This document shows positions 4,819-63,114 of a stretch of DNA of 64,000 nt, in pieces (within the stretch, counting starts at the first letter, position 1; each line of letters starts with the position of its first letter). The stretch comes from a virus. Both the position numbers and the translations under genes were made by a program. The stretch is from IMG/VR virus record IMGVR_UViG_3300048999_000056, positions 48,819-112,818 of that record. One strand, given 5' to 3'. The notes below the pieces were generated by a model, which ran no database searches, was not told the DNA's origin, and was given only the letters and a program-made list of their open reading frames with translations.

Positions 4819-4878
4819 TCTGTCGGGTGCAGTCCAACGGTCTGCACCCCACGGACTTCCTAAAGAGCGGCTTCGACA

Positions 4879-7800
4879 ATGGCGTGGTCCTTCGTCGGTG
4901 CCGGCGCTTTAGCGTCCGTCACCACCACAGCGATATCGGTAGCAGAGCCCGCTGGTGTACAAGCCGGCGATCTTCTTGTTGCGCTCATATCGCATCGTGC
5001 CGCGTCGGGTGCCGCTTCGGTGGTGCTGCCGACTGGTTGGACTCTCGTTACTGAGCAGAAGGTCGGCAACACCACCGCCGCCAGCACGTTAGGCATCGGC
5101 AACGGCGTCATGGCCTACCGGGTCGCGACCGGAGCCGGTGGGCCGTGGAGCTTCACGGTTCCGACCGCGAACGTTGCGCTCGGTCGCATTCTTGTCTACC
5201 GCGGTCAGGACAAGCTCGCGTCGCCACTGTGTATGACACGCAGCACGACGACGGCAACCGCCACGACGAGCATCAGCGTTACTGGCCTAACAACGCCGAA
5301 CGCCAACTGTCTGATCATTCACGGTCTATGCGGCGCACAGAATGGCGCGATGTCGGCATTCGACGCCGCGACCGATCCAACGACTGCTAGCGGCACGGGC
5401 GGTCAAACAGGCGCTCCAACTGCCGGGACATGGCTGGAGCGAACCGATGACGCTACCGCGAATGGTTCCGATTGTAGTCTGGCAATTGCAGACGCGGTTC
5501 GGGCCACGTCGGGCGCCACAGGCAATTTCACCGCGACGGCGGCGCTGGGTTGTGGCTACGCCTCGCTCGTCGGCGTGTTCAAACTCGACGTTGCAATCCC
5601 AGCCGGCCAACGGCTGGTCACGCATTACATCATCGGAACGGGAACCGGCAGCTTCACGCCGCCGTCCACCGTCAACGCGATCGTCGAAGTATGGGGCGCG
5701 GGCGCCACTGGAAACACCGCGAGCGGCGTGGGCGGTAACGGTGCTGGTTGGTCACGGGATAGTAGCTACGCGCTAACAGCGGCAACGCCGGTCAACTTTT
5801 CGCTCGGTGCTCCCGGCGCGACCTCTGCGGCGGCCGGTGGCGATACTTGGTGGGCAACATCCGGCACGCTGATAGCGAACGGCGGCGGGTCCGCTACCGC
5901 GCGGATCGGCGACGTGACGTTTGTCGGTGGCGTGGCGAGCACCAACTCTGCCACCGGTAACACCGGGGGCGGTGGCGCAGCCGGTCCGTATGGACCTGGG
6001 CGAGCCTCTGGCAGTGCTGGCAGTGGTGGCGGAACGGGTGGCGGTGGTAACGGCGGCGGCACCGACTCAACAGCTTCCGCAACGGCAGCTGGCACCGCTG
6101 GCGGCAATGGTTTCGCTGGAACGGGCGGCGCTGCTGGCGTTGCAAATGGTAATGGTTCGCCGGGCGGTCCGGGCGCGGGCGGTGGCGGTGGCGGTAACAC
6201 GACAGGTCAAGGCGCTCGCGGTGGTGATGATTGGAGCAACGGCGGCGGCGGTGCGGGTGGCACAGGCAGCCTCGCCAATCATCCTACAACGGCGGTCGGC
6301 GGCACGCCGGGTGCTGGCGGTGCGGCGGCAAATGCGGCACTTGGGCGCGGCGGTTACAGCCTCGTCAAACTCAGCTATGTTGGGACCGACGATGACAGCC
6401 TGACAGTTGTCGGCTCGCTGTCGAACATCGTCTTCGCGCGACCGGGTGCAGCTCATATTGCCGGCACCGGCTCGATATCGGCCAATGCAACAGTCGTCAG
6501 TGGCGGTCCGACTACTTGGCAAGGGACTGCAACATTTGCTGGCGTAGCGTCGGTTAGTGCTGTCACTGCCTACGTCAAACCGCAACAATGGGACATCGGC
6601 AACTACTATCATCCCAACGTCACGCTGTCGGGCACGGGCGGAAACTTTACCGCGCTGCAGACGGGGAGCAGCGGCAACCGTGCATCGGTGGTTGCGACTG
6701 AGTTTTTCAATACCGGCAAATACTACTGGGAACTGCAGATCGATTCCACTGGCGGCGGTCAGTATGTCGGACTGGCGCGTGCAGCGTTCGATCCCAACGG
6801 CTTCGATTCCGCCTTGTATGCGACTGAGGTTACGTGGTGGACCTTTACCGCTGACTCATCCGGTCATATAGTTGCTGCTAACGTCGAGATCAGCGCCGGG
6901 GCACCGTTCTACACGACTGGCGATCGTGTCCAGTTTGCCTGGGATGCTACCAATCATCTGATATGGCTTAGAGTCAACAATGGCTCTTGGGCGAACGGCG
7001 GTGATCCGGCAGCCGGGACCAACGGTTACGATATCTCGTCCGTGACGGGACCTCTCGCTCCGGCGATCTCGCTGGGCGGCACGAATGATCAGATATCAAC
7101 CAAGTTCGATCGTGCCTCGTGGTCCGGCACGGCGCCAGCCGGTTTCGCTCAATTCGACCCTGTCATTCTACAGGGAACTGCAACGCTAGCCGGCACGGGC
7201 TCGCGGACCTTTAACGCCACGCACACACCGGCAGGCACAGCAACAATTGGCGGTGCCGGTTTGCTTAGCGTCTCTGCGCGGATCATTGACCGGATCGACC
7301 CTGTCACGCTGGCAGGTATCGGCTCAATTACTGCAAACGCTACGCATACGCCGGCAGGCACAGCCGTTTTCGCCGGTCTAGGTTCGTTAACTGTTGACGC
7401 AACTGTTGTTCTCGGCACTGTCACGTGGCAGGGCTCGGCAACGTTTGCAGGCGTCGGCACGCTCAGTGTCAATGCGACGCACACGCCAGCCGGACAGGCG
7501 ACGATCAACGGCGCCGGTTCGCTTGCTGTCACTGCGACGCTGATCGATGCTATAGACGCTCTTACGCTGCCAGGTGCCGGCTCTCTCAGCGTCAACGCCA
7601 CGCATACGCCGGCTGCGGCTGCGACGTTTGCCGGTATCGGCTCGGTCACGCTCAATGCGACTTTGACTGCTCCGGTCACGGCGAATATCAACGGCACCGG
7701 ATCGGTCACTGCCAATGCTACGCACACGCCGGCTGCGACGGCATCGCTCAACGGTGTCGGATCGATAGCAGCAACCGCGACGGTCATCGCTCGTGCCTCA

Positions 7801-12438: not shown

Positions 12439-13445
12439 GCCTGCGCTGACGGGTCGCACCCTGCCGCGCCTAACCGTGTCGGGCGATGCCTGCCAAGCCC
12501 TGACAATCCACGTCTTGCGTTGCCGTGCCGTGCCGGGCCTGCCGGGTCAAGCCGGGACCTTCCGAGCGTTGCGATGCCGCGTCTGCCCCGCCATGACATG
12601 CCTTGCCGTTGCGAGCGTAGCCTTGCCTGCGCTGTCTTGCCGTGACGGACCTAGCCGCGCTCTGCCCTGTCGAGCCTGCCATGCCATGCCCTGACGATCT
12701 ATGCCATCCCGAGCCGAGCCTAGCCAGCCACGTCAAGCCGTGCCTTGACACGTCTTTCCAAGCCTAGCCGAGCCGAGTCTGCGTTGACCTGCCAATCGAT
12801 ACCTCGCCGTGCCAAGCCGCGTCTGCCCTGCCTCGGCCTGCCGAACGATACCATGCCCTGCAGACCCATGCCTGCGATGCCGGAACGTGCCCTGCGCTCT
12901 CGTGCCACGTCACCACGTACCCTGCCTGCGCCGCCTCAACGCGTCCTACCGAGCCAAGCCGAGACAAGCCTGCGATGCGGCGCCTAGCCTCGCCTCGACG
13001 GATGTCGCCTCGCCTAGCCTGCGTTGCCACAACCAGCCCCCCGAGATCAGGCGAACCCAGCGTGTCCAAGCCTGCCACGCGCCGCCCGGACTGCCCTTGC
13101 CTATCGGTGTCGCCCCGAGCCGGCCGCGCCCTGCCTCGCCCAGTCTCGTCCTGCCAGGACGTGCCTTGCCTGCCCCGTCGTGACGTGCCCAGCGCGGCGT
13201 AGCCGAGCCTGCCATGCCATGACCGGTCTAGTCCCGCCTAACCATAGCGGGCCGCGCCTGCCCCGCCATCCGGGCGTCGCCTTGCCGAGCCTTGTCGAAC
13301 CATGCCTGCGACGCCTTGCCACGGCGTTACGCGTCTAGCCGCACCTTGCCGAGCCTGCGACGCGATGCCTTGCCAAGCCACGTCGCAACCCGCCAAGCCT
13401 GCGTTGCCATCCCTCGAATTGCCCAGCCAACGCTAACCCTGCCCT
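12439..13445 (-). repeat. Array 1: 21 units of (NN-GGC)7-10 + AGGC; candidate guide-RNA array of the adjacent RAMP protein
   Basis: + strand GCCTGC-type boundaries at 12439,12488,12537,12581,12625,12674,12723,12777,12821,12870,12924,12968,13017,13070,13119,13168,13207,13256,13304,13353,13397; 18 of 20 intervals equal 5n+4; interior is GCC-NN pentamers. Confidence 0.9.
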
Positions 13446-13458
13446 GTACACAAGGCGA

Positions 13459-13474
13459 GGCGGCCGAAGCCGCC
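13459..13474 (-). promoter_or_regulatory. C(UUCG)G tetraloop hairpin in leader of array 1
   Basis: - strand GGCGGC-TTCG-GCCGCC, 13 nt upstream of first array pentamer. Confidence 0.7.
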
Positions 13475-13499: not shown

Positions 13500-14021
13500 C
13501 TACTGTCTGCGGCGCTTTCGCCCTGCCTTGCGGTCGGGGCCTTTGCGTGCTGGCGACTTCACCGTGCCACCTTCCAGCTGATCCTGCCGGCGCCGCTCCA
13601 GTTCGGCAATCCGCTGGCCTTCATCGAACAGGCGCGACATTTCGGTCAACCGCTGATACTTGATATGGAAGCGGTTGAAGTCATCTAGCGCGTCCTTCAA
13701 CATGACGCGCCGCAAGTCACGATCGGGCAGAATGCGATCAAGCGGACGATAACCGCCGCCCGCGTGACGATCGATACTCAACGAGATCATGGTGCGCTGC
13801 CCGGTATCGTCAACAACATGAATGGCAATCAGGCGGCGTATCTGGTCGAGCCGATAGCGGTATCCTGCCTTGGCGTCTTCCCATTCGAGTTCTTCATGCA
13901 GTGCCGAGCTGGGATGCGTAGCAGCCCAGTCGTGCACCACCTTGACGTAGAGATTGCCATCGGGATCGAGCCGGCGCAGCGCCTCCAGTTCCTGCTGGAT
14001 GCGCGCCGTGGATTCAAGCAT
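13500..14021 (-). CDS. Conserved phage protein associated with RAMP/array locus
   Basis: GGAGG RBS before ATG 14021; ELEAL....G.L....V..WA...P.S.LH..LEW.D..A...YRL.Q.R.LI motif; basic C-terminal tail. Confidence 0.75.
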   Translation of the reverse strand: MLESTARIQQELEALRRLDPDGNLYVKVVHDWAATHPSSALHEELEWEDAKAGYRYRLDQIRRLIAIHVVDDTGQRTMISLSIDRHAGGGYRPLDRILPDRDLRRVMLKDALDDFNRFHIKYQRLTEMSRLFDEGQRIAELERRRQDQLEGGTVKSPARKGPDRKAGRKRRRQ

Positions 14022-14262
14022 TGTTCGGCCTCCTGGTTGAACGCGCGGCCCAGCCGATAGCGTTCGCCAGATCGCCTTTTTCCATTGCCAGCTCATACTT
14101 GTTGAGTGCGAGCATGTGTTGCGTGAACTTGCGCTCGCGCCGTGCCCATGTGCCAATACGCCGCTTCCTCCGAGGCGGCGTTTCCTGCAATGCTTTCTCC
14201 TTCAGCGCCTCTTGTGCGAGGCGCTGCCCTTCACGGGTTATGTTTTTCAACCGGCTAAGCAT
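14014..14262 (-). CDS. Small basic helical protein, translationally coupled in RAMP operon
   Basis: 82 aa; 8-nt overlaps with both neighbouring genes. Confidence 0.6.
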   Translation of the reverse strand: MLSRLKNITREGQRLAQEALKEKALQETPPRRKRRIGTWARRERKFTQHMLALNKYELAMEKGDLANAIGWAARSTRRPNNA

Positions 14263-15265
14263 TGCTGTTGACTACGTCCCACAAGCCCCAGTCCAGACCG
14301 TTGGAGTTCGGCGAGGAGGGCCGCCCCTCGCCGACGCCGACCTGCATACCGGCAATCGCCATCAGGTTGACCACGTCGGTTGCCGAGAACTGCCGCGCGT
14401 CCCAGCGGACGGTCACGGCGGCGTTCCACTTTTCCCACATAGGCCGGTGGCGGATATCGGCAACGCCTGATGCGTTGCGGGCTGGCGCCTCGTGCAGCCG
14501 TGGCGTGCCGTTGATCTTGACGAGCGGCTGCCCATCCTGATCGAGTCCGTCCGGCACGATGAACAACGACAGCTTGGCGCGTGTCATCGTGAAGCCGGCA
14601 AGGCGGCACGCGTCAATCATCGCGTTGCGGAAAGCCGGCGCCGGAATGCCGTGCCATCCGTCACGCGCGATATGCTGCGCCAGACGGTAGATTTCTTCGA
14701 AGTCCTTCGGCTCGCGACGGCGGCGTGACTTTTCGCCCTGCGAACCCGCCTTCTGCCGCTCCACCATCATGTTGACGGCTTTCTGGCTGAATTTGTGTTG
14801 CACGTAAGGCGTAGAGCCTCTGATGTAGACGATGCCGCGATCGAACTGCGGCGGTTGAATGACGACGCGCGTCACCTTGCCGCTCAACACGCCAACCGTG
14901 CCTTGCTCCATGGTGCTGTCGAGCGTTTCGATCGGGATCGGCGAGGCGGGTATCCTGCCGAAATTGTCGGTGTTGCGCATTGACGGCCCGGCTACTGCAC
15001 CCTTGCCGTTCTTGCCCTTGCCGTTCCGACCGATCGTCGCCTCACGTTCCGCCAGCAGGTCCGCAACCGGATTGCCGCCAGCGTGCGCCGCCTCGAATGC
15101 GGCTTTCTGCTGTCTCTCGTCGCGTGACATAGGTCCGCGCTTGCCGGGCTCGCGTGCCCAAACGGCCGGCTCAACGTCTTCGACTGCGGGAGCTGTCCCC
15201 CTCTGCGCCAGCTTCTTGGCCTTCAATGCCTTCTTGGCGCTTTTCTTGTCCTTCAACGTCGTCAT
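14255..15265 (-). CDS. Stand-alone Cas7/RAMP-superfamily-like protein
   Basis: IVYIRGSTPYVQH (first RRM strand), GIPAPAFRNAMIDAC (IPxSSxKGxxR-like), C-terminal G-loop GVGEGRP....GLDWGLWDV; RBS GAGGGA before ATG 15265. Confidence 0.75.
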   Translation of the reverse strand: MTTLKDKKSAKKALKAKKLAQRGTAPAVEDVEPAVWAREPGKRGPMSRDERQQKAAFEAAHAGGNPVADLLAEREATIGRNGKGKNGKGAVAGPSMRNTDNFGRIPASPIPIETLDSTMEQGTVGVLSGKVTRVVIQPPQFDRGIVYIRGSTPYVQHKFSQKAVNMMVERQKAGSQGEKSRRRREPKDFEEIYRLAQHIARDGWHGIPAPAFRNAMIDACRLAGFTMTRAKLSLFIVPDGLDQDGQPLVKINGTPRLHEAPARNASGVADIRHRPMWEKWNAAVTVRWDARQFSATDVVNLMAIAGMQVGVGEGRPSSPNSNGLDWGLWDVVNSNA

Positions 15266-15319: not shown

Positions 15320-15345
15320 ATATACAAAACGCCTATTCGTGTTGA
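15320..15345 (-). promoter_or_regulatory. Phage promoter motif TCAACACG-N12-GTATAT upstream of RAMP operon
   Basis: Same bipartite motif recurs at 18073-18099 and 22926-22953 upstream of - strand genes. Confidence 0.65.
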
Positions 15346-27762: not shown

Positions 27763-28318
27763 TGCTGCGCTCGTCGTTGCTGTTGTGAAATTCGCCAAAT
27801 AGCTGCCGTGCTGCTTGTTCGTAAGCTGCTGCGGCATCCTCGGGTGTCTTGAAGTATCCCAACGACTTGCGTTTGCCGTTGATATTTATGTACGCGATCC
27901 ATCTAGGTGGTAGCTTCGGGCGATGCTTACCATTGTAGCGAGCCACTCCTCGGTATCCAGAAGTGTTATTAGCATGGCGACGGCGGTTCTGCATGTTCTG
28001 CGAGTGGGTAGCCTCTCGCAGATTGTCGTGTTTGTCGTTGATTGCGTTTCGATTCCGGTGATCGATCTCCTGTCTCGGAAACCGCCCGGTTGTGAGCGCC
28101 CATATGATATGTGAAGCTAGGTAGTTCTTGCCTGCAATCTTCACTAAGCGATAGCCATTGCGATTTATACATCCGGCGAGCATGCCTCCTCGTACGCGAC
28201 CGTGAAGTCCTTTTCGCCATCGTAGAATGCCTGTAGATGGGTCGTACATAAACAGCGACCGTAAGATTTCAACGGCATCCGATTCTAGATTAGCAACGCC
28301 AGTAAGCTGTTGCGGCAT
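27755..28318 (-). CDS. HNH-AP2 homing endonuclease
   Basis: YDP.TG...EIDH.NRN..N...NLREAT.SQN..N; NNTSGYRGV...W.A.I.....LGYF...EDAA.AY (AP2). Confidence 0.9.
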   Translation of the reverse strand: MPQQLTGVANLESDAVEILRSLFMYDPSTGILRWRKGLHGRVRGGMLAGCINRNGYRLVKIAGKNYLASHIIWALTTGRFPRQEIDHRNRNAINDKHDNLREATHSQNMQNRRRHANNTSGYRGVARYNGKHRPKLPPRWIAYININGKRKSLGYFKTPEDAAAAYEQAARQLFGEFHNSNDERSNG

Positions 28319-28350
28319 ATAGACTTCTCCGTTTGCTCTTGGTCCTAATG

Positions 28351-30144
28351 CTACCGAAGACGGTTGATCGACGTTCCCTCTTGCTCCCGTGTGCACACCC
28401 AAACTTCATCGAATGGGAATGTCATTGAGCGGTGGTCCAGCAACCAGACGGCACGTGCACTCTGTTCCGTGCGGTCCTGCAGGCACGTCAACAAATCATC
28501 GATGCCCTCCGGTGACAGCCAAGCCGTCGGTTCATCGAATACCTCTACCGAGTGATATACGCCGGCCATGTTCTGTATCAGGGAAGCCAGTCCGAAACTC
28601 ACTGCCAGCTTGACGCGTTGCGCCTCGCCGAACGAGTAGGACTTGTATGTGCCCTGCCCGAGCGCGTTGACGGCGTGCACGTGGATACCGGGTGAACGCG
28701 TGCCGGACTCGATCTCATAGCGGATGCGCCATGCCCCGATGCCGAGCTGTGCGGCTGCCGATGCCGTCTCGATCTCCAGCAATGCCAGGATGCGGCGGAT
28801 CAGGAACAGCCGGACCAACCGAAAACCGCGCTTCCAGTAGTCAACCTTGATCTGATCCTCGGCCAGCGTCTCGATCGCAAATTGCAGGCTCTGGACGGTT
28901 TCGGCGAGCTGGTCAGCCTGCTGGCGGACCGACGCGATACGGTCTGCCAGGGGCGCTGCCTGGCTGCCACGCTGGGCTTCCTCCAGCCGCTGGCGGGCTT
29001 GTGCCAGACCGCGCTGGCAGGCTGCCACGTCGGCCCGTGCGGCGGTCTGTTCGTGCTCGCATCGCACGCGCGCTTCACGGGCTTTCTTGGCTTCGACTTC
29101 TACCTCCACCATGACCCTACCGGCATCGCGCCAGTCGCGCTCCAGGTGGTCGAGTTTTACGCCCGTATCGTCAGCCTGTAATTCGAGTTCTCGCATCCGA
29201 CGTTGCGCGAACACCTGATCGATCCGTTGCTTGCACGTTGGGCATGACTTGTGGTCGCGCAGGAAGTCGCTGTCTCCGAGGATGTCCTTATGCCGGAATG
29301 CCGCCTGCGTGTGATCGGTGCGGATGACTTCGATAATGTCCTGCAGCTCGCGTAACTGCAGATCGATGTCCTGTTCCGCCTGCTGCCTCGCCGTCAATGC
29401 CTGAGCAATGCCACGGGCACGCTGTTCGGCAGCACGCAATGCGTTGTCGGCCTGCACATAGTCATTCTTCAAGCCTTCCTCTGCGCGCGCATGATAGTCC
29501 TGCCATTCGGCTTGTGTCGCCGTGAGTTCCTGCAACAGTTTGTCGAGCCCGCTCGCGCGGCCTGCCTCGTGGGACTTGGTATTGTTGAGTTCGCTCAGGC
29601 TCTTCGTCATTTTCGCCGACTGCTCGCCGGCAAAGTCTGACAATTTCAGCCAGACGCCCAGTCCCATGATCTCGTCCATCAACGCGCTACGTTCTGGTAT
29701 CGACAGGTCCATGAACAGCGGCGCCGACTGGCCGAAGATCACCGAATGCACGAAGCGCAACCGCGTCATGCCCATCAGCGCATCGACGGCAGCCTGCGGC
29801 ACCGGCTCATTGTTCAACAGTAGCGTATCAGGCGAACCGGTGCGATCGATGATTTGCGTTTCACCGTCAACATTATACTGCGCGATGACATGCGGACGTT
29901 GCTTGAGTTCCCACGTGGCGAGGTCCGACGCGCGCTCGCCTCGGATCGAGGTCCCATAAAGGCACCACGTCAACGCATCCCACAACGATGACTTGCCGCT
30001 GCCGTTCGATCCGAGCGCGGGCTCGACCTTGTTGATTCCAGTGATGAAGCGGAACCCGCCCTCGGTCGGAAATTCGATCCGTGTCTCCTGGCTGAAGCAA
30101 CGAAACGCGGTGATCGTCATTGCCTCCAGCACGATCAGCCGCAT
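28351..30144 (-). CDS. SbcC/Rad50-like ATPase (gp46-like)
   Basis: SNGSGKSS Walker A, coiled coil with CPTC hook, S.GE signature, VFDEP. Confidence 0.9.
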   Translation of the reverse strand: MRLIVLEAMTITAFRCFSQETRIEFPTEGGFRFITGINKVEPALGSNGSGKSSLWDALTWCLYGTSIRGERASDLATWELKQRPHVIAQYNVDGETQIIDRTGSPDTLLLNNEPVPQAAVDALMGMTRLRFVHSVIFGQSAPLFMDLSIPERSALMDEIMGLGVWLKLSDFAGEQSAKMTKSLSELNNTKSHEAGRASGLDKLLQELTATQAEWQDYHARAEEGLKNDYVQADNALRAAEQRARGIAQALTARQQAEQDIDLQLRELQDIIEVIRTDHTQAAFRHKDILGDSDFLRDHKSCPTCKQRIDQVFAQRRMRELELQADDTGVKLDHLERDWRDAGRVMVEVEVEAKKAREARVRCEHEQTAARADVAACQRGLAQARQRLEEAQRGSQAAPLADRIASVRQQADQLAETVQSLQFAIETLAEDQIKVDYWKRGFRLVRLFLIRRILALLEIETASAAAQLGIGAWRIRYEIESGTRSPGIHVHAVNALGQGTYKSYSFGEAQRVKLAVSFGLASLIQNMAGVYHSVEVFDEPTAWLSPEGIDDLLTCLQDRTEQSARAVWLLDHRSMTFPFDEVWVCTREQEGTSINRLR

Positions 30145-30561
30145 GTTGAATCTTCTTCATCTGATAATTCGATAGAAGCCTTCCGTGCTTTTTGGGCTAC
30201 CATCCGGCAGAATCGTTTTATTTGCTCCTGTGTACAATCGCAGTGTTTCATCGTCATCAACGCGAAAAAAAGCGATAGTTCGGCGGGCATTCCGTTTAGA
30301 ATCCGCTCTACAACTCTGTCGGCAAGCCCGTGTAAATTATACTGCTCGGCCATAACATTCAACCTTTCAGCCGCATGTGGCGCCATCCGGCATGCTGTCA
30401 ACGACCTTGCCGAGTTCTTCTATTATGTCGCTCATGGCATGCGGGTAGCGTGTCTTGTCGAGTTGCTGGATGCCGAGCCGCCGTGTGTTGCTGTAGACTT
30501 GGAATAGGATCGTCTTTTCGGTTTCCTGTATCTCGATACGCAACATGCTTTCCTCCTTCGT

Positions 30562-31575
30562 TTATAGCACGATGCCTTTTGCTTCTTCCAACAAATCAAA
30601 TCCGGCTTCAAGCAATGGGATGTCGATACCCTCTGCTTCGGCGAACGCCATCATGGCTTCCTCGGGATCAGTCAGCTCTGCTGCTTCGCCGCTTGGCTGT
30701 GGCGAGGTCTCAACGATCGGCTCGATACCGGCCAGAGACACGCCATGCTGTTGCGCCCATTGCGTGATAGCCGCCTGTTCCGCCGGCCATTGCTCGACAC
30801 GATCAAGCGGCATGACAAGACGCACCCTGGCGGAATCACCGTGGCGCACATAACCGCGCTGCAGATCGGCGGCGCTTGTGATCTCCAGCACGTGTTTGCG
30901 GATCGGCATCAACGGAACTTCGCGGATGATCTCGCAGCTCTCATTGTCAATGACCAGGAACCGGCAACGATGATCGTCGCCGAACCTGACAGGATGCGGT
31001 GCGCCGACGTAGGTCCAGATGCCCGAGCCGACCGGTATCGTCTGCGGCGTATGGATGTCGCCCGAGTAGAACTTGAAGCCACGCGGCGCCTCGATTGCCA
31101 AAGGCTTGTTGCGCGATCGGTAGCGCTTGCCGTGCCCGATGTCGGCGCCGTCCAGCGACTGATGCAGGAAGGCAGCGCGGTAGAGCCGAAACTCGATACC
31201 CTGCCAATCCTCCATCGCGCGAGCGGTTGAGGGTAGCATGAGTTGCCTGCCGCGTGCGGTAGGCTCGCGGATGAAGGTGATGCCGGGCATGGCGTTGAGA
31301 AACGACCAGAACGGCTTTTCTTCGTAAAGCGGCCGATCGTGGTTGCCGGCCAGTATGGTGACTTCCACGCCTTGCTTGGCGAACTCGTTGGTTAGCGTGT
31401 CAACGAGACGGTTGACCAGCGCTGCCGGATGCCGGTCGCGCCGGTCGCCCAGATCACCGAGAATGTAAAGTTGTTGATCATCCTTGAGCAGAGGGTAAAG
31501 CCATTCGACGACCTGCCACCGGTATTCTTCGTCCGGGTTTGACGTTAGATGCCAGTCGGCGGTTAAGATTGTCAT
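30562..31575 (-). CDS. SbcD/Mre11-like nuclease (gp47-like)
   Basis: ADWH, LGD, GNHD, SGDIH metallophosphoesterase motifs. Confidence 0.9.
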   Translation of the reverse strand: MTILTADWHLTSNPDEEYRWQVVEWLYPLLKDDQQLYILGDLGDRRDRHPAALVNRLVDTLTNEFAKQGVEVTILAGNHDRPLYEEKPFWSFLNAMPGITFIREPTARGRQLMLPSTARAMEDWQGIEFRLYRAAFLHQSLDGADIGHGKRYRSRNKPLAIEAPRGFKFYSGDIHTPQTIPVGSGIWTYVGAPHPVRFGDDHRCRFLVIDNESCEIIREVPLMPIRKHVLEITSAADLQRGYVRHGDSARVRLVMPLDRVEQWPAEQAAITQWAQQHGVSLAGIEPIVETSPQPSGEAAELTDPEEAMMAFAEAEGIDIPLLEAGFDLLEEAKGIVL

Positions 31576-32053
31576 AAATGGCTCCGTAATGAGCGATCAG
31601 CGCTGCTTCTGCTTTGCCATCGTCTTTCACACGGCTCCACATGCGCGCGTTGAGTGGGAACAGCTCACTCGCGCGGCGCCGTGTTGCGCCCTTGTCCTTT
31701 GGGCATCTCAACGCCTTCTTCCACTCCTGCGGCGTGACGAATGTATGCGGCAACTCCAGCGCCGCCACGACACCTTCGACAATACCGCACGCCTTGCCAA
31801 AAGCGTAGGCGCTCGCAACACCTTCTTTCGGCAGTGAGCTGACATTCTCAATGTAGACGTGGCACTTGCGCCCGTTGGCGATTACGGCAACCGCCTTCAG
31901 AAACGTTGCGAGGCGAGGCGCGTTGACACGCATTCGCTTGCTCTTGCCGACCTTTACTTCATCGGCGGGCATGGGCTCGATCTGCTCAAACTCCCCGTCG
32001 ATCGAGACGGCGATTGCGCCGCGTGCCCCCGGATCGATGCCGATGATGATCAT
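31478..32053 (-). CDS. RuvC-like Holliday junction resolvase
   Basis: IIGIDPG..GA.A, IE.V, F....G, TPQEWKK, DDG.AEA.LIA. Confidence 0.85.
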   Translation of the reverse strand: MIIIGIDPGARGAIAVSIDGEFEQIEPMPADEVKVGKSKRMRVNAPRLATFLKAVAVIANGRKCHVYIENVSSLPKEGVASAYAFGKACGIVEGVVAALELPHTFVTPQEWKKALRCPKDKGATRRRASELFPLNARMWSRVKDDGKAEAALIAHYGAIYDNLNRRLASNVKPGRRIPVAGRRMALPSAQG

Positions 32054-32141
32054 CGCTTCCTCCTGGTCAGCCATAACCAGACCCAGGCCGGCACCGTCAG
32101 TCCGATGCCGACGAGCGGGACGATCAACCAGTAATCTAGCT

Positions 32142-35847: not shown

Positions 35848-38397
35848 TCAGTGTCTGTAATTGCCCTCGAATGTAGCGACCTCGTCCAGATCGCACCAGT
35901 TCTCGCCGACCTTCAATTCGACATTGAGCGGCACGATCTGAAATGGGAACCGGACTTTTGTCAACACCGGATAGATCGCATCGATGTACTGCTCGGGGTT
36001 GTCCTCCGGTATGAAGAAAGTCAGGTCATCGTGGATTTGCAGGCGCGGATGCAGGAACATATCGCGCTCGCGTCTGGCAGCCGCTGCGATGTCATTCATG
36101 GCCTCGATAACGATGTCGGCGGCGGTGCCCTGGATAGGCGTGTTGATAGGCTCATTGCCGGACAGGATGCCGCGCCGCACGCGCTTGGTCAACGTCGTGA
36201 TCGCGCCAGTGTCGCGGTATTCGTTGCGCCGATCCTTGTGCCAGCGCTTCACGCCTTTGTAGGTTTCCCAGAAGAAGCCGAGTATCTCCTGCACGATGCG
36301 CAACGGGATGCCGGTGCGCTCTGCGATGCTGTCGGCGGCGCCACCGTATAGTGCGTTGAACACAAGATCGGACTTGATGCAGTCACGACCGTATTTGCGA
36401 ATGCGCTTTTCGTCTTTCTCGCCGGTCAGGCTGGCGAGGCGGTCAATGTAGTCAGCATGAATGTCGAGCACCTGATCAAGCCAGTAGGAATGAATGTCGA
36501 AGCGGCTGATGATCGACGAGCAAAGGTTGCGGTCCTTCGATGCCATTGCCAGGACGCGCGCCTCCAGCTGTCCGTAGTCGAACTTGGCCATGATCAGCGG
36601 GCGCCCGTAGCGGCGGATCATCTCCTCGCGGATCAACGCGATCATACGGCGTATCTCGCGGTGCTTGCGTATCGGATAGTTCTGAATGTTCGGCTCGCGG
36701 CTGGACAGCCGCTGTGTCGATACAAACATGGTCGTATACGTCGGATGCAGCAACCCGTCAGGGTAGCGCTCCTCGGCTTCCAGCGTCGGATCGATGTAGC
36801 TCAGGACCTTGCTGATCTCGCGATCGTCCAGCACGGCCTGCGCCAGCGGGTTCTGCTTGGCAAACTTCGACAGTGTTTCAACATCCGTGCTGTATTGCGT
36901 CTTGGCAGATTTCGCGCTGCCTTTCGTGTAGGGCAGGTCCAGCTTGCCGTAGGCAACCAGAGCGATGCCGACCTGCTCCGGTGATGTCAACTTGAACTCT
37001 GTTGCGCGTTCGTCCTCGAAGCGCCGGACCTCGTACAGCTTGCGTGCCTTGGCGCGGATTTCCTGTTGCTGCTCTCGCAGATTCTGTTGCAGCCGCAAGG
37101 CTTCCGCCTTGTCGGTCGGCAATCCCTCCAGCTCCATGTATGTCGTGGCGTAGATCGATCCAATGATGCGGTCATAGTTGTCATCGTTGACCTTGCCGTC
37201 CAGCCGTTGGTAGATCAGCGCCGATGCCAGCGCGTCCAGCCCATTGTACGGCAGCACTTCATTGAGCGGATACTCCATGATCCGCTTGGTATCGATGTTG
37301 CAGATGCGTTTGACATTGGTGCCAAGGTGGATATGCGAAGCGTCACCGAGATCGAGCGCGCTTTCCCGTTCGTGGTAGAGTCGGACCAATGCCATCGTGT
37401 CGTCGAACGGCGCCAGCGGTCTGTCGGTTTTGTTGTAGTAGGTGAACCACGCCAGTTCGTGCGCGGCGTTGTGCGCTATCCATCGTCGCTCGCGGACAAC
37501 CTGCATGCTAAGATCAACGCCCCAGTCGGTGGCGCCGCCCGGATGATTGCAGGGGAACGCAATCGTCGTCTTGCCGTCGCTGAAGGCAGTCGTCAACCAT
37601 TCGGCGCCACGCTCGTATGGGCGTAGTTTGGAAGATTCCGTATCAACCGCAAGCGGATCACGCATGCTCGACAAGAGATTGACGGCCTCCTGGCGGTTCT
37701 GCGGAATGATGACGTTCTTCCTGCTGATCGGCACCACGCGTGGCGGCGGATAGTGATCAACGTTCTTGAAGAAATTGCGGACATCGTTGCGGAATACCGG
37801 CATGGCCGGATTCTCGTAGCGGTCCTCCCGCTGCGTGTGCAGGATGAACGCAGGATGCATGACAGGAAAATACCAGTAGGATTTTCCGTTGATCTGCACT
37901 GGGAACTTCAAGCCGTGCACGCGCATGATCGATGCGCCGGGGAAGAACCGCCTGAGCGGCACCGCGCCAACACCGAGAATTGCTTTCAGCCCGCGCATAG
38001 AAGCGATGTCGGCGTCAAGATGTCCTGAGCACGCATGCGCTTCCTGCAATGTCGGCGTGCGATTGCTGGCCGGTCGGCAGCGCACCATGTTCTGATAAGC
38101 AACACGGTCGAGGTGCAGTCGGGGTATCTGCTCGCGCAAGAGGCTGCCAGACGGTCCGATCAGCGCCGCGCCCCTACGGTCCTCCTCCTCGCCCGGACCC
38201 TCTGCCAGCGCCAGGATATCGCCTGCCAAATTGCCCGTCAGCGGCATCTCGGGTGTGGTGATCGTGCCCCACGTCTTGCTGAGCGGGCACGCCTGACAGC
38301 CGATCGCCTGCGGATCGAGGATCGGCTGCGGCTTGGCGGCCCGTGCGGCAGCTGGACGTACGCCCTCGTGCACGTCCAGCGTCTTCCAGAAGCCCAT
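35848..38397 (-). CDS. Family A DNA polymerase with N-terminal uracil-DNA-glycosylase-like domain
   Basis: C..CPL...EGPG.EED..G...GPSG..L, N.V.CRP..NRTP...C, HPA (UDG family 4); DTES exo I; SS.EPNIQN, DYGQLEAR, LYG, N.PIQGTAAD, HDD; GGAGG RBS before ATG 38397. Confidence 0.9.
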   Translation of the reverse strand: MGFWKTLDVHEGVRPAAARAAKPQPILDPQAIGCQACPLSKTWGTITTPEMPLTGNLAGDILALAEGPGEEEDRRGAALIGPSGSLLREQIPRLHLDRVAYQNMVRCRPASNRTPTLQEAHACSGHLDADIASMRGLKAILGVGAVPLRRFFPGASIMRVHGLKFPVQINGKSYWYFPVMHPAFILHTQREDRYENPAMPVFRNDVRNFFKNVDHYPPPRVVPISRKNVIIPQNRQEAVNLLSSMRDPLAVDTESSKLRPYERGAEWLTTAFSDGKTTIAFPCNHPGGATDWGVDLSMQVVRERRWIAHNAAHELAWFTYYNKTDRPLAPFDDTMALVRLYHERESALDLGDASHIHLGTNVKRICNIDTKRIMEYPLNEVLPYNGLDALASALIYQRLDGKVNDDNYDRIIGSIYATTYMELEGLPTDKAEALRLQQNLREQQQEIRAKARKLYEVRRFEDERATEFKLTSPEQVGIALVAYGKLDLPYTKGSAKSAKTQYSTDVETLSKFAKQNPLAQAVLDDREISKVLSYIDPTLEAEERYPDGLLHPTYTTMFVSTQRLSSREPNIQNYPIRKHREIRRMIALIREEMIRRYGRPLIMAKFDYGQLEARVLAMASKDRNLCSSIISRFDIHSYWLDQVLDIHADYIDRLASLTGEKDEKRIRKYGRDCIKSDLVFNALYGGAADSIAERTGIPLRIVQEILGFFWETYKGVKRWHKDRRNEYRDTGAITTLTKRVRRGILSGNEPINTPIQGTAADIVIEAMNDIAAAARRERDMFLHPRLQIHDDLTFFIPEDNPEQYIDAIYPVLTKVRFPFQIVPLNVELKVGENWCDLDEVATFEGNYRH

Positions 38398-38452
38398 AGA
38401 CACCCTCCTGATTTGGTAGCCTCTCAGAAGGGATATACGAAACGCCGAAAAA

Positions 38453-39081
38453 GCCTGCGCTGCCGCTGCCCGCCCTGCCTTGCCGAACCGGGTCATGCCA
38501 AGCCAGCCCTGCCGGTCCGAGTGCTGCCCTGGCTAGCGTAGACCTGCCACGCCGGCCATGCCCTGCCTTGCCTTCCCGGACGTGCCGAGCGTGGCCTGCC
38601 ATGCCGAGCGTTGACCTATCTTGCCGCCCTGGCCGTTCCGAGCCAAGCCTGCCGATCCGCGTCGATCCGCGCCAAACCTAGCCGCGCCTGCCACGTCTCG
38701 CCACGGCGGGCGGGTCGATGCCATCCCGCGCCATGCCCGCCATGTCAAGCCTTTACGTGCCCTGCCTAGCCGATACGAGCGGTGCCTGCGTTGCCGAACG
38801 TTTGCATGCCCCGTCTAGCCAATACAGGTCGCGCCTGCGTTGCCAAATCGCACCCCGTCTAGCCGACACAAGCCCCGCCTGCGATACCGAGCCATACGCA
38901 GACTGGCCTAGCCGTGCCCTGACGAGCCTGCCCCGATCAGACCTCGTCGGTCCATGCCTAGCCGAGCGCAGCCTGCGTTGACGATCCGCGTCTTGCCCGG
39001 TCAACCCGTGCCATGCCTAGACCACCACGCCTGCCAAGCGTTGCCGATACGAGCGCTTCCTTGCCGGGCCGAGCCGCGCCT
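38453..39081 (-). repeat. Array 2: 13 units with same GGC-NN/AGGC grammar as array 1 (orphan)
   Basis: Boundaries at 38453,38502,38551,38594,38647,38686,38735,38784,38833,38877,38926,38971,39029 plus terminal GCCT 39078; lengths 49,49,43,53,39,49,49,49,44,49,45,58,49. Confidence 0.9.
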
Positions 39082-39094
39082 GATTCCTATATAC

Positions 39095-39553
39095 CTATCG
39101 CCTTTTGTTCAACTGTTCCATGACACGGTTGAACTTCTGCTCGGCTGTCTCCGGCTTGCCGCGTTCGCGCAGAAACTTGATTACGTCCGGTGCAGATTCT
39201 TGCGGCACTCTGAAACGGAAATCGGCATATGTGGGATCGTGGCTGCAATCGTTGTCGCCAAGATAACCTGGCAGGGCGCGGAGGTCGGCATTCCAGGGAC
39301 CGCGCGGCGGGTCGGCGTCAGGTGCGAAGTACTCGGGATAGCTCCTCCTGCAACGTTCCTCGCTTTCATAGTAGTCGCGATTGCCGCCACCAGTTCTCGT
39401 ATGCACGACGATGACAGGCACCGTCTCTGTGTCATCACTCCAGGTGAAGTATGCGTCGCGGAACCGTGGAACGTTGTCGGTCGTGATACACAACATGGAC
39501 AATGCCAACGGTGCCACGGGTTCCGTGCCGAACAGATGGTGATAGAGACTCAT
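39095..39553 (-). CDS. Conserved phage hypothetical protein
   Basis: MSLY..LFG...RFRDA...VHTR.GGGNR..Y...D.TYA.F.F. Confidence 0.65.
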   Translation of the reverse strand: MSLYHHLFGTEPVAPLALSMLCITTDNVPRFRDAYFTWSDDTETVPVIVVHTRTGGGNRDYYESEERCRRSYPEYFAPDADPPRGPWNADLRALPGYLGDNDCSHDPTYADFRFRVPQESAPDVIKFLRERGKPETAEQKFNRVMEQLNKRR

Positions 39554-39876
39554 TGTGGTTCCTCCTTCGTTGGTCGAATATCGGGCCATGTCTTGCCGCC
39601 ACCTTTCCCCACGGCGGACGCGCCGCCAGTGATGGATACGGTGATCAACATTTGCGTCACGCCTTCAGGCACAACAAACCACCCGGCCGGCGTCCTGAAC
39701 TTCGATCCGGGAATCAGATCGGTCATTTGATAGGTCGTGTTATCATAGAGATGCGCTGGCATCTGGCGCTGCCCTCCGCATTCGTTGCATACGTCTCCAT
39801 AGCCTGTGCCATGGCCAGAGAACCCGCTGCCTCCGCACCGTGGACAATCAACCATCGACGCTGCGGTTGGTCCCAT
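39550..39876 (-). CDS. Zinc-finger (CxxCxGxG) protein
   Basis: CPRCGGSG...CNECGG. Confidence 0.55.
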   Translation of the reverse strand: MGPTAASMVDCPRCGGSGFSGHGTGYGDVCNECGGQRQMPAHLYDNTTYQMTDLIPGSKFRTPAGWFVVPEGVTQMLITVSITGGASAVGKGGGKTWPDIRPTKEEPQ

Positions 39877-60840: not shown

Positions 60841-61357
60841 GGGATGTTATGACGGTTTCCGAGTTGCGGAGATTACTGGCCCGTGCTCCGAGTGAGATGC
60901 CGGTTGGTGCGACAGATGGTGACGGTGTCTCGGCTGAAATCCAGTTTGCCGGCGTTGTCAGCGATGACAGGACAGGCAAGCAGTTCTTCCTGATCCATCC
61001 GAACGGTGGCGTTCCTGTTTACGAGAGGTTGGAGGCAAACGCGATGAACAAAGCCGAATTGTGCAAGAGGCTACGCGGACTGGTTGACGCGCTTGAACTG
61101 ATGCCGGACGAGTTTGTCAACATGGGGTTGCCGTTGATCCGTGTAACAGTGCCGGGCCGCGACGCGGACGGCAATCGTATTGTATTGATGGTTGGAGGGG
61201 AATATGCCGCAGACACCGACGAAGGATGATACGGCGGACAGCGCAAAGCTGTTGATTGACAGCGTGACCAAAGCGTTGAAGCGCGGGGTTGAACACTACG
61301 ACAAGCGCGGTAGGCGGTTGTGGACCGTCCGCGATGTCCTGAGCGCCCTGCAACGGG

Positions 61358-62164
61358 ATGGCGAGATCGAGCTATGCGAGAAAGGCGGTGGGGCCGGTGA
61401 TCAGAATGACACCTGATCCGTTCGCTCAGTTGCTCGACGCGCTGCAACAGGTCGTCAATGACGCGAAGATCGGCGCGCTCAAGGCAACGGCGAACGCCAC
61501 ACGCGTAGAGGGCGAACCGCCACGCGTAGACATGCAAGCCGTTCAACGATTCATGGCGGAGCGAGGAATGTCAGAAACAGGTAGAGGCCATTACTACTGG
61601 GTGCGTGTGCGAGGCAACCCGGCTCCTATGATCGGTATGCGTAGCCAGATTTCAGGCGCTTGGTATATATCAGGTGTGGCGGGCGGATATGCCGATGCTG
61701 ATATCGAAGTCATCCGCTCGGTCGAACCATTCGAGCAACCGATGGCTGACTACTGTGCCGCGACAGGTATAGTTGATAAGCCGCCGAAAACACCGCATGA
61801 TCCGCTGAAAGGGCACACGCTGTTGCTGGTCAAGACTTCTAGCGGTTACTCATATTCGGTGCAACCCGAGCGCGCAATGGAAACGGCGATGAAGCTGGCG
61901 CAGACAGAGCCGGTTTACATACTTGACGGTCATACCCGGGAGATTCTCGTGTCGCTGGGAAAAGGGCAAACGATGATCAACAATCCGATCCCCGATGACG
62001 TGCTGGAAGCGATGGCGGACGCGATGCTCGATCCGCCGCTGCGGATTCCGGGCAAGGTGCCGAACGCGGAGGGCAACAAGGTCCGCACGCGCGCCCTGTC
62101 TCGTGCGCTCGCAGCGGCGGAAGAACTCGGCTGGGTGATGGTCAAGGCGGAAACGCGGGAATGA
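61358..62164 (+). CDS. Hypothetical protein (start uncertain)
   Basis: Long ORF in + strand gene run. Confidence 0.45.
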   Translation: MARSSYARKAVGPVIRMTPDPFAQLLDALQQVVNDAKIGALKATANATRVEGEPPRVDMQAVQRFMAERGMSETGRGHYYWVRVRGNPAPMIGMRSQISGAWYISGVAGGYADADIEVIRSVEPFEQPMADYCAATGIVDKPPKTPHDPLKGHTLLLVKTSSGYSYSVQPERAMETAMKLAQTEPVYILDGHTREILVSLGKGQTMINNPIPDDVLEAMADAMLDPPLRIPGKVPNAEGNKVRTRALSRALAAAEELGWVMVKAETRE

Positions 62165-63114
62165 GCCTGCAGATAATCAACGGTAAGGAACTGCATCATG
62201 GCCGTCACTCCGGAACAGACAGCGTTTGTCCATACATTGTCTGACTGCATCGACAACAACAGAGGCGCGCTGAACGAGCAACAGATTGCTGCTGCCTTGT
62301 TTACCGGCGCGCTGTCGCATCTGTCGCACGCCGATGTTACAGACAAGGAGCGGTGGGCTACTCTCGTCGCATGGACGAGTTTTATCAACATGCTGAAGCA
62401 TGACGCCATTGCGAACCTTCTTGTGGGGAAAATGTAGTGCCAGTCGTCAACACAGTCGGCGAGCTGCAGGATATCCTGTCGCTCATACCGCAATCAACGC
62501 CGCTCGGGATCAAGATGGGCAGGCTCGTGTTCTACAAACTTGAAGTCAGCATGCTGAAGCGTGAAGACGGTTCCCCGGTCTATTGCATCATAGGAGACAA
62601 GTTATGGCCGCAGCCAGCCGAATGAATGACGCCGAGATAGCGGCGGCAATACGCGCCGCCATGGCAGGCAATACGGGCGCCCTGGAAGGGGCCTACATCG
62701 AGAGTTTCGCCCGGCGCGGTATGGAACCCAAGACGTTCCTTGAGGCTGCCGACCTGTGCTCTTCCGTGGCGTTGAGCGCGCCGCATTACACCGGCTTCCA
62801 CGCTGGCTGCAACAGGTGCGCTGCTACGCTGAGGGAAATTGGCGAGGCGTTGGCGAAGCACCTTGATATGTATGGGCGACCGTGATGCGCGTTTATCTCG
62901 GTTATACGATTGTCAACGCCAAGGATGAACTGGATATACAGTGCACCGATGACATGAGCATCGACGATCACTGCATGAGCGGACGCGTGTGGCTCGATCG
63001 CGAACTTGCTCAGGCGGCGTTGGATCACCAGAACAACAGTTTCGGTTATGCTCATGCCGAGCGTCCGTTCAAACTGGCCGATGTCGCGATCGTGGTGAGG
63101 GAGAAAGGCGAGAC

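What the first reader, a model, noticed from the sequence alone, without database searches (positions are those of the whole stretch)
38453..39081. Second, orphan array with identical grammar 25 kb away, with its own promoter motif
Seen: 13 units (49,49,43,53,39,49,49,49,44,49,45,58,49 nt) in the same orientation as array 1, with NN strings not identical to any array 1 unit. A GTATAT phage promoter motif (39089-39094) lies just upstream of the first AGGC, and a T5 run follows the last AGGC. It sits between a hypothetical gene and the DNA polymerase promoter with no RAMP gene nearby. Inference: it is an independently transcribed guide cassette used in trans, giving about 34 guides in total. Two dispersed copies argue for function over local slippage.
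Basis: partly seen in the sequence, partly recalled or inferred. Interest (0 to 1): 0.88.

Follow-up and report, generated by a model that had tools for sequence, protein, structure and literature searches.

The report
Distal VIPR guide-RNA array in phage
The 629-base patterned stretch is a second array of about 13 short guide RNAs for the phage's VIPR system, a CRISPR-related RNA-guided DNA silencer first described in 2026. It lies 25 kb from the single protein gene that would use it, and two of its guides spell conserved motifs of a bacterial CBASS immune effector and of a prophage protein.

Summary
Window 38453-39081 (- strand) is non-coding and built of GGC-NN pentamers grouped in 13 units, 9 of which are 5n+4 nt long. 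The triplet is conserved (1.5/0.8/0.8 bits) and the dinucleotide is free (0.14/0.04 bits). GGY pairs five bases apart number 27, against 4.3±2.0 in shuffles.

This grammar matches the 'staggered' vrRNA arrays of VIPR systems (bioRxiv 10.64898/2026.04.26.720920). The 112.8-kb phage has five such arrays (about 80 guides) and one vipr gene (window 14255-15265). That gene has a Cas7-like fold (Z 10.5), belongs to the same PHROG as SUSP1 Vipr, and its family profile hits the solved SUSP1 Vipr (E 9e-6). Homologues of the protein sit beside same-strand pentamer arrays in 47 of 55 unrelated genomes, against 0 of 50 control loci.

Read by the published 1-nt-skip code, one guide (38689-38737) matches 18/18 the catalytic TSTGGIIAI codons of CBASS patatin effectors. 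Another (38880-38928) matches IEIQCYVL of P63C-domain prophage proteins.

Transcription is only inferred from a shared GTATATA leader motif. This is a new member of a known kind. The scan has already noted dispersed VIPR arrays and patatin-motif guides in other phages.

The parts
38453..39081 (-). Array 2: a staggered vrRNA array of 13 units (about 11 of guide length) made of GGC-NN pentamers
   Evidence: 5-nt phase, 5n+4 units, conserved triplet and free NN. No ORF longer than 87 aa. No Rfam or tRNA match.
39088..39094 (-). GTATATA promoter-like motif 7 nt upstream of the first AGGC of array 2
   Evidence: the same motif lies just upstream of the first repeats of arrays A, B and C and ahead of the vipr operon. 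GTATAT alone is not enriched (29 seen, 23 expected). No sigma-70 consensus was found.
38689..38737 (-). Guide E8: NN string AT GC AT AT CC CC GT GA GT, antisense-decoding to T-S-T-G-G-I-I-A-I (patatin GxSxG motif)
   Evidence: 18/18 exact matches in CBASS phospholipase effector genes, in codon register. 18 hits at <=1 mismatch in 401 Alphaproteobacteria, against 0 for the reversed control.
38880..38928 (-). Guide E4b: NN string TC AG AC TA CA TG AT TC AT, antisense-decoding to I-E-I-Q-C-Y-V-L-(D/E)
   Evidence: the single exact IMG/VR hit and the single <=1-mismatch hit in 401 genomes fall on the same motif of homologous P63C-domain (PF10546, phrog_2384) proteins.
38448..38452 (-). T5 run after the last unit; a weak terminator or none
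   Evidence: no terminator by consensus scan, and the local fold is less stable than shuffles (z +1.6).
38433..38438 (-). Second GTATAT motif, directly upstream of the DNA polymerase start
35848..38397 (-). DNA polymerase (UDG family 4 + 3'-5' exonuclease + PolA), the downstream neighbour
39095..39589 (-). 164-aa protein with no family match, the upstream neighbour
   Evidence: no Pfam or PHROG match.
14255..15265 (-). vipr: the only Vipr/RAMP gene of the genome. The RAMP domain is residues 135-336; the N-terminal ~130 aa is a Lys-rich extension.
13500..14021 (-). 173-aa accessory (vap-like) gene, phrog_15946
   Evidence: homologues lie directly downstream of vipr in 35 of 55 loci. No similarity to SUSP1 vap1.
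14014..14262 (-). 82-aa gene between vipr and the 173-aa gene
   Evidence: an ORF only, with no family match.
12440..13470 (-). Array 1: the vipr-adjacent staggered vrRNA array, about 21 guides
15320..15325 (-). GTATAT motif ahead of the vipr operon

Best explanation
Array 2 is a distal 'staggered' vrRNA array of the phage's VIPR (Viral Interference Programmable Repeat) system.

Inferred steps: the - strand is transcribed, probably from the GTATATA motif at 39088-39094. The transcript is cut at the xGCA|GGC junctions into guides of about 49-50 nt.

By homology to SUSP1 VIPR: protomers of the single Vipr protein (window 14255-15265) polymerise along each guide, one per pentamer. They hold the GGY-like triplet and present the NN pair.

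Shown here by target matches: the NN pairs read double-stranded DNA by the 1-nt-skip code (xNN), so codon positions 1-2 are read and the wobble base is skipped.

Inferred from the preprints: binding silences transcription of the bound gene. At least two guides are aimed at foreign genes. These are the catalytic motif of CBASS patatin phospholipase effectors and a conserved motif of P63C-domain prophage proteins. The array therefore adds anti-defence or anti-rival guides to a repertoire of about 80 guides spread over five loci.
For: 1. Grammar. The triplet is conserved and NN is free (1.51/0.82/0.81 against 0.14/0.04 bits), with the same profile in all five arrays. 9 of 13 units are 5n+4 nt, and the junction consensus xGCA|GGC is shared with arrays A, B and D. 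This equals the 1-nt-overlap 'staggered arrays' of fig. S18 in bioRxiv 10.64898/2026.04.26.720920.

2. Partner protein. There is a single vipr in a genome rated 100% complete. The AF2 model has pLDDT 85.5. The top Foldseek hits and roughly the top 28 VIA-align hits are all CRISPR RAMPs (best is Csm3: Z 10.5, rmsd 4.0, 147 residues aligned). The protein falls in phrog_4652, together with the SUSP1 gene flanked by GGT-NN arrays (E 1e-96) and Quico gp57. hhalign against that SUSP1 gene gives 88% probability, E 2.8e-6. The family profile hits PDB 36pp 'SUSP1 Vipr protein' at E 9e-6.

3. Association. 47 of 55 loci from many phyla that encode a homologue carry same-strand GGY pentamer arrays, against 0 of 50 control polymerase loci. 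Blastn of the arrays themselves finds only the (GGCNN)~55 array beside the homologue in Mycobacterium cluster F phages.

4. Targets. E8 gives 4 exact 18/18 hits in IMG/VR. Three of them lie in CBASS phospholipase effector genes, in codon register, and one of those is next to a CD-NTase gene. Six other guides gave 0, 0, 0, 1, 1 and 2 hits. In 401 Alphaproteobacteria E8 gives 18 hits at <=1 mismatch against 0 for the reversed control. All 12 hits examined lie on the patatin GxSxG motif (11 read GTSTGG, one GTSMGG), and one exact hit lies in a capV-cdn operon. E4b: the only IMG/VR hit and the only genome hit fall on the same motif of homologous P63C proteins.

5. No self-targets above the shuffled-guide null, as the preprint reports for VIPR.
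Against: No sigma-70 consensus promoter or intrinsic terminator was found, so the array could equally be co-transcribed with neighbouring genes. Only about 55% of the triplets are strict GGY, and 4 of 13 units break the 5n+4 rule. Five of the seven guides tested have no convincing target. The 50 related polymerase loci (<=58% amino-acid identity) lack an array at this site, so conservation cannot be used. The system's accessory gene is unrelated to SUSP1 vap1, and the VIPR type could not be assigned. Silencing capV transcription would not remove effector protein already present when a lytic phage arrives; no integrase was found.
Confidence: 0.85

Rival explanations
1. Array 2 is a decaying, non-functional duplicate of part of another array. 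It would have been copied into the polymerase upstream region and would no longer be used.
For: Four of 13 units are off the 5n+4 grammar, and several short fragments of 19-29 nt lie in the 38554-38650 stretch. Relatives lack an array at this site. Sub-strings such as CGCTCGTATCGGC recur between units, as expected from duplication.
Against: The per-position information and GGY fraction equal those of the vipr-adjacent array. Two guides keep perfect 18/18 matches, in codon register, to conserved foreign motifs, which drift would erase quickly. The leader motif is intact.
Confidence: 0.07
2. The array is a decoy or counter-weapon: its RNAs are made mainly to load and misdirect the Vipr proteins of rival phages, as described for satellite and VIPR-null 'solo' vrRNAs, rather than to serve the phage's own Vipr.
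For: Solo vrRNAs with such roles are described in bioRxiv 10.64898/2026.10.15.759431. The array lies far from vipr.
Against: The phage has its own intact vipr. The junction and triplet grammar are identical to the cognate array. No guide matched vipr loci or arrays in 55 homologous loci above the shuffled-guide null. The two targets found are a defence effector and a prophage gene, not decoy repeats.
Confidence: 0.04
3. It is a DNA-level element, such as a replication origin, iteron field or R-loop-forming G-rich tract, placed in front of the DNA polymerase gene.
For: The - strand is G-rich (41% G, 27.5% C) and reads in the same direction as the flanking - strand genes. The site lies in the replication module.
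Against: The same grammar occurs at five sites, including after terL and next to vipr. It travels with Vipr homologues across phyla. The 4.9-nt period with free NN has no known DNA-binding counterpart. The NN strings decode to protein motifs in codon register.
Confidence: 0.02
4. It is a degenerate pentanucleotide microsatellite, or the 5' leader of the polymerase mRNA, with no function of its own.
For: Short-period repeats can arise by slippage, and there is no terminator between the array and the polymerase gene.
Against: Slippage gives identical units. Here the NN pairs are near maximum entropy while the triplet is kept. Tandem Repeats Finder reports no period-5 array across the stretch, only two short hits of period 9-10. 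The RNA has no unusual structure (z -0.7). The two target matches are unexplained by this reading.
Confidence: 0.02

Closest known systems
VIPR systems with 'staggered' vrRNA arrays (bioRxiv 10.64898/2026.04.26.720920, fig. S18)
   Same: GGY/NN pentamers. Consecutive guides overlap by 1 nt, which gives 5n+4 spacing. There is no tail between guides. A Vipr RAMP is encoded in the same phage. The 1-nt-skip code reads codon positions 1-2.
   Different: This array is 25 kb from vipr and is one of five dispersed arrays with about 80 guides. The preprint text I read describes vrRNAs flanking vipr. The VIPR type could not be assigned because no supplementary files are held.
Type II VIPR of Escherichia phage SUSP1 (Vipr + Vap1 + four vrRNAs; PDB 36pp)
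   Same: The protein family is shared: phrog_4652, hhalign E 2.8e-6, and the family profile hits the solved chain at E 9e-6. The repeat period is pentameric.
   Different: SUSP1 vrRNAs are about 100 nt, use GGT triplets, and end in a structured pseudoknot tail. Here the guides are about 49 nt, use GGC triplets, and have no tail or structure. The accessory gene is unrelated to vap1. The Vipr here carries an extra ~130-aa basic N-terminus.
Solo/orphan vrRNAs of satellites and VIPR-null phages (bioRxiv 10.64898/2026.10.15.759431)
   Same: vrRNA genes that stand away from any vipr gene and act in trans.
   Different: Those elements have no vipr and borrow or misdirect a rival's protein. Here the genome keeps its own vipr, and the 'orphan' is a whole 13-unit array.
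CRISPR class 1 crRNA-Cas7 backbones (Csm3/Cmr4/Cas7)
   Same: RAMP fold with a glycine-rich loop. One protomer binds per fixed step of the guide.
   Different: There is no repeat-spacer array, pairing is non-contiguous, and the step is 5 nt rather than 6 nt.
Unannotated loci of Mycobacterium cluster F phages (e.g. Quico gp57 plus an adjacent (GGCNN)~55 tract)
   Same: A homologous protein (40% identity over the RAMP domain) lies next to a same-strand GGC-NN array.
   Different: Those phages have a single, nearly perfect array directly beside the gene. In some records it is annotated as a hypothetical protein.

Membership tests
VIPR system | A Vipr protein (minimal RAMP: RRM core, G-loop, thumb) encoded in the same element | tested here: met
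   The AF2 model has pLDDT 85.5. VIA-align gives Z 10.5 to Csm3, and roughly the top 28 rows are all CRISPR RAMPs. Foldseek top hits are all Csm/Cmr/Cas7. The protein is in phrog_4652 with the SUSP1 gene. The family profile hits PDB 36pp 'SUSP1 Vipr protein' at E 9e-6. There is a single copy in the genome.
VIPR system | vrRNA made of alternating conserved GGY and hypervariable NN | tested here: met
   Array 2 information per pentamer position is 1.51/0.82/0.81/0.14/0.04 bits. 55% of triplets are strict GGY and the rest are one-off variants. GGY pairs at +5 number 27, against 4.3 +/- 2.0 in shuffles.
VIPR system | Staggered array architecture (adjacent guides overlap by 1 nt) | tested here: met
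   9 of 13 units are 5n+4 nt. GCAGGC junction spacings are 39/44/49/54/59 in all arrays. The spectral peak is at 4.9 nt, which is 49/10.
VIPR system | 1-nt-skip (xNN) code with natural targets, the skip base falling on the wobble position | tested here: met
   E8 and E4b match 18/18 in codon register to the patatin and P63C motifs. Five other guides gave no clear target.
VIPR system | No self-targeting | tested here: met
   No guide exceeds the shuffled-guide null on its own genome, except one at 16/20 against a null maximum of 15.
VIPR system | An accessory vap gene next to vipr | tested here: inconclusive
   The 173-aa gene (phrog_15946) follows vipr in 35 of 55 homologous loci. It is unrelated to SUSP1 vap1, and its fold and its class among vap1-6 were not determined.
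VIPR system | vrRNAs are expressed, processed and co-purify with Vipr | not testable with these tools
Only a shared GTATATA leader motif supports transcription.
VIPR type II (SUSP1-like) | A structured 3' tail or pseudoknot after each repeat tract, and a vap1 partner | tested here: not met
   There is no tail between units. The array folds no better than shuffles (z -0.7). No vap1 homologue was found.
CRISPR-Cas | An array of identical direct repeats separated by unique spacers | tested here: not met
   Tandem Repeats Finder and direct reading show no repeats of 20 nt or more in or near the region. This is not filed as CRISPR.

The most novel reading that the evidence does not exclude
A probably lytic soil phage uses a distal VIPR array to switch off host or prophage-borne immunity by RNA guidance. 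Guide E8 reads the wobble-free codons of the catalytic GxSxG motif shared by CBASS patatin effectors (capV) of many lineages, so one guide would cover many alleles. Anti-defence genes would then be a target class of VIPR that the three preprints do not mention; they report satellites, prophage regulators, and rival vipr genes or vrRNAs.
Probability: 0.4. Interest if true: 0.8.

Novelty: new member of a known kind. Interest (0 to 1): 0.5.

Why it matters
VIPR was described only in 2026, mostly from compact loci of E. coli and Pseudomonas elements. This phage shows a much larger deployment: one Vipr gene serves about 80 guides in five separately placed arrays. That means guide cassettes can be scattered and used in trans within one genome.

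The perfect match of a guide to the catalytic motif of CBASS phospholipases, in codon register, gives a directly testable case of RNA-guided anti-defence by a phage. The match to P63C prophage proteins fits the published inter-element warfare role.

The work also shows that many Mycobacterium cluster F phages, and MAGs from many phyla, carry unannotated VIPR loci.

Tried and rejected
- Rfam (gathering threshold) and ARAGORN found nothing in the window.
- Single-sequence AF2 of the full 336-aa protein failed (pLDDT 36). The RAMP domain with an alignment worked.
- My first ideas were a TRAP-like RNA-binding site, an R-loop or origin, or a CsrA-type sponge. I dropped them once the protein-array association and the VIPR preprints were in hand.
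- Close relatives of the phage were sought with the polymerase N-terminus. IMG/VR gave none. Metagenomes gave 50 loci at <=58% identity, none with an array within the stretch held on either side of the polymerase gene (up to 6 kb). The 164-aa ORF upstream of the polymerase in L003 is not a homologue.
- No self-target was found. No guide matched 0.73 Mb of fetched loci above the shuffled-guide null.
- Exact IMG/VR scans gave 0 hits for E1, E6 and E14, 1 for E7, and 2 unrelated low-GC hits for E15. E15 in 151 genomes gave 3 one-mismatch hits in unrelated genes. I treat all of these as chance.
- E9 matches a truncated capV in L109 at 13/14, but out of codon register and only there. I treat this as chance.
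- A search for patatin-coded guides in the arrays of the 55 homologous loci found none.
- The sigma-70 and terminator consensus scans found nothing.
- No supplementary files are held for the discovery preprint, so the VIPR type is unassigned.

Full report
OBSERVATION. On the - strand, window 39081..38453 is a 629-nt stretch with no ORF longer than 87 aa and no Rfam or tRNA match. It is 41% G and 27.5% C. Successive GGC triplets lie 5, 10, 15 or 20 nt apart, with 4, 9 and 14 as the minor class. The spectral peak is at 4.9 nt, not 5.0. GGY pairs five bases apart number 27, against 4.3 +/- 2.0 (maximum 11) in 500 dinucleotide-preserving shuffles. Information per pentamer position is 1.51, 0.82 and 0.81 bits for the triplet and 0.14 and 0.04 bits for the dinucleotide. 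GTATAT at 39089-39094 and the T5 run at 38448-38452 are present.

GENOME CONTEXT. The window belongs to a single-contig virus record of 112,818 bp that CheckV rates 100% complete. A scan for phased GGY finds five arrays:
- + strand 3501-5500 (genome coordinates);
- - strand 27819-28368;
- - strand 29819-30168;
- - strand 61169-62318, which is array 1 (window about 12440-13470);
- - strand 87219-87918, which is array 2.

Together they hold about 80 units of guide length. All share the junction consensus xGCA|GGC and spacings of 39/44/49/54/59 nt. No array-2 NN string is identical to another unit; the best is 79% identity in register.

THE PARTNER PROTEIN. The gene at window 14255-15265 (-) has no Pfam match, but residues 146-330 match phrog_4652. 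With a 45-sequence alignment, its C-terminal 202 residues fold at pLDDT 85.5. Foldseek's best hits are all Csm3/Cmr/Cas7 chains. An unbiased VIA-align search of 48,161 chains ranks CRISPR RAMPs in roughly the top 28 places; the best is Csm3 9g9a_D with Z 10.5, rmsd 4.0 and 147 residues aligned.

In Escherichia phage SUSP1 (KT454805), the 195-aa gene flanked by GGT-NN tracts is phrog_4652 at E 1e-96. hhalign of my alignment against it gives 88% probability, E 2.8e-6 over 164 columns, including the GxGxxRP glycine loop. The family profile hits PDB 36pp, deposited as 'SUSP1 Vipr protein', at E 9e-6. The phage has only this one copy.

A 173-aa gene downstream of vipr (an 82-aa ORF lies between them here) has homologues in the same position in 35 of 55 related loci, so it behaves as a conserved accessory gene. 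It is unrelated to SUSP1 vap1.

ASSOCIATION TEST. Blastn of either array against 50,697 phage records hits only a non-coding tract of Mycobacterium cluster F phages. In Quico that tract is a nearly perfect (GGCNN)~55 array on the sense strand, directly beside gp57. gp57 is 40% identical to the RAMP domain here and is also phrog_4652. Of 55 loci from Alphaproteobacteria, Planctomycetota, Verrucomicrobiota, Cyanobacteria, Actinomycetota and other phyla that encode a homologue, 47 carry GGY pentamer arrays on the gene's strand. None of 50 control loci around the polymerase gene (396 kb) does.

WHAT IS KNOWN. bioRxiv 10.64898/2026.04.26.720920 describes VIPR. A phage RAMP, Vipr, binds vrRNAs made of alternating GGY and NN. 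The NN pairs read double-stranded DNA with one skipped base per pair (xNN), usually the wobble base, and binding silences transcription. The preprint defines seven types, among them 'staggered arrays' whose vrRNAs overlap by 1 nt. That overlap explains the 5n+4 rule and the 4.9-nt period. bioRxiv .720927 gives the filament and triplex structures. bioRxiv 10.64898/2026.10.15.759431 describes solo and orphan vrRNAs on satellites and on phages without vipr. The array here lacks the structured 3' tail of type II vrRNAs.

TARGETS. I replaced each triplet by N and dropped the constant last pentamer. No guide hits its own genome above a shuffled-guide null.

Exact 18-base scans of IMG/VR with seven array-2 guides gave the following hit counts:

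| Guide | Exact hits |
|---|---|
| E1 | 0 |
| E6 | 0 |
| E14 | 0 |
| E7 | 1 |
| E4b | 1 |
| E15 | 2 |
| E8 | 4 |

Three of the four E8 hits lie in genes matching PADLOC CBASS 'Effector phospholipase' models (E down to 2e-97); two of them were also run against Pfam and match Patatin. The hits fall exactly on T-S-T-G-G-I-I-A-I, with the skipped bases on wobble positions. In one contig the next gene is a CD-NTase.

In 401 Alphaproteobacteria genomes, E8 gives 18 hits at <=1 mismatch (4 exact), against 0 for the tool's reversed-pattern control and about 2 expected by chance. All 12 hits examined lie on the patatin GxSxG motif: 11 read GTSTGG within an FDxIAGTSTGGI(I/M)A context, and the twelfth reads GTSMGG. 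One exact hit is in a chromosomal effector-cyclase pair.

E4b's single IMG/VR hit lies on I-E-I-Q-C-Y-V-L-D of a P63C-domain protein (PF10546, phrog_2384). Its single hit in the 401 genomes lies on the same motif of a clearly homologous protein.

The hits of E7 and E15, and a 13/14 out-of-register match of E9, look like chance. Neither preprint searched mentions CBASS or patatin targets.

TRANSCRIPTION SIGNALS. GTATAT is not enriched overall (29 seen, 23 expected). GTATATA nevertheless lies just upstream of the first repeats of arrays A, B, C and E and ahead of the vipr operon. At a density of about 1.3e-4 per base per strand, this is very unlikely by chance. The consensus scan finds no sigma-70 promoter or terminator here. 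The stem before the T5 run is weaker than in shuffles. A second GTATAT follows at 38433-38438, just before the polymerase start. Independent transcription is therefore plausible but not shown, and read-through into the polymerase gene cannot be excluded.

RELATIVES. The nearest polymerase loci available (<=58% identity) go from the ribonucleotide reductase gene to the polymerase gene without any pentamer array. Array 2 is therefore a lineage-specific insertion. Its conservation cannot be judged.

MECHANISM.
- Shown: the grammar; the single RAMP partner related to a solved Vipr; the family-wide linkage of protein and array; the absence of self-targets; and two codon-register matches to conserved foreign motifs.
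- Inferred from the preprints: transcription and cutting at junctions; one Vipr protomer per pentamer; xNN pairing with double-stranded DNA; and silencing.
- Open: whether silencing capV helps a phage with no detectable integrase, given that effector protein is already present before infection. The hits in IMG/VR suggest that prophage-borne CBASS may be the real context.

RIVALS. I considered a decaying copy, a decoy for rivals' Vipr, a DNA-level origin or R-loop element, and a microsatellite or mRNA leader. Each is contradicted by the preserved information profile, the phage's own intact vipr, the cross-phylum linkage, or the target matches. Together I give them about 0.15.

VERDICT. This is a genuine distal VIPR vrRNA array, and so a new member of a kind published in 2026. 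Earlier notes of this scan report dispersed VIPR arrays and patatin-motif guides in other phage genomes. I found the patatin match here independently, before reading those notes, but I did not check the other genomes. The dispersed layout of five arrays and about 80 guides, together with the CBASS-effector guide, are the points of interest.

Noticed in passing
L001 (Mycobacterium phage Quico NC_028751) 2440-2720, - strand of the locus; also Florinda, Saal, Gorge, Donkeykong, Brocalys and others: Cluster F mycobacteriophages carry an unannotated VIPR-like locus: gp57 (phrog_4652, 40% identical to the RAMP domain here) sits next to a near-perfect (GGCNN)~55 array. In several records an ORF across the array is annotated as a hypothetical protein.
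   Followed up: partly
window 14864-15265 (-): The Vipr here has a ~130-aa Lys-rich N-terminal extension. Only its closest homologues (310-336 aa) are as long; most family members are 200-250 aa.
   Followed up: no
genome 4727-4775 (+ strand, array A unit 31; 44,043-44,091 bases before the window start) versus window 38880-38928: A guide in the array after terL shares 11 of 14 NN letters in register with E4b. It would decode to I-Q-G-Y-Q-L-E, against I-Q-C-Y-V-L-D for E4b. It may target a variant allele of the same motif, but the match is within chance for the number of comparisons made.
   Followed up: partly
window 15325, 18078, 22931 (-) and 57630 (+); genome 3513 (+) and 28336 (-): A longer shared promoter-like motif, roughly (C)AACACGAAAA-N7-9-TT(T/C)GTATATA, stands before several genes and arrays. 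It is probably this phage's own early or middle promoter class. Array 2 has only the GTATATA part, with TTGAACA upstream.
   Followed up: partly
window 35848-38397 (-): The DNA polymerase is a fusion of a family-4 uracil-DNA glycosylase domain, a 3'-5' exonuclease and PolA. The fusion is shared with about 46 metagenomic relatives.
   Followed up: no
BK059895.1 Cyanophage Cy-LDV1 31490-32086: This is the closest homologue of the Vipr domain among named phages (53% identity). It is annotated as a hypothetical protein. I did not look at its surroundings.
   Followed up: no
L109 5538-6020: One of the IMG/VR patatin targets is a truncated effector gene (160 aa). Guide E9 matches it at 13/14 about 60 nt downstream of the E8 site, but out of codon register.
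   Followed up: partly
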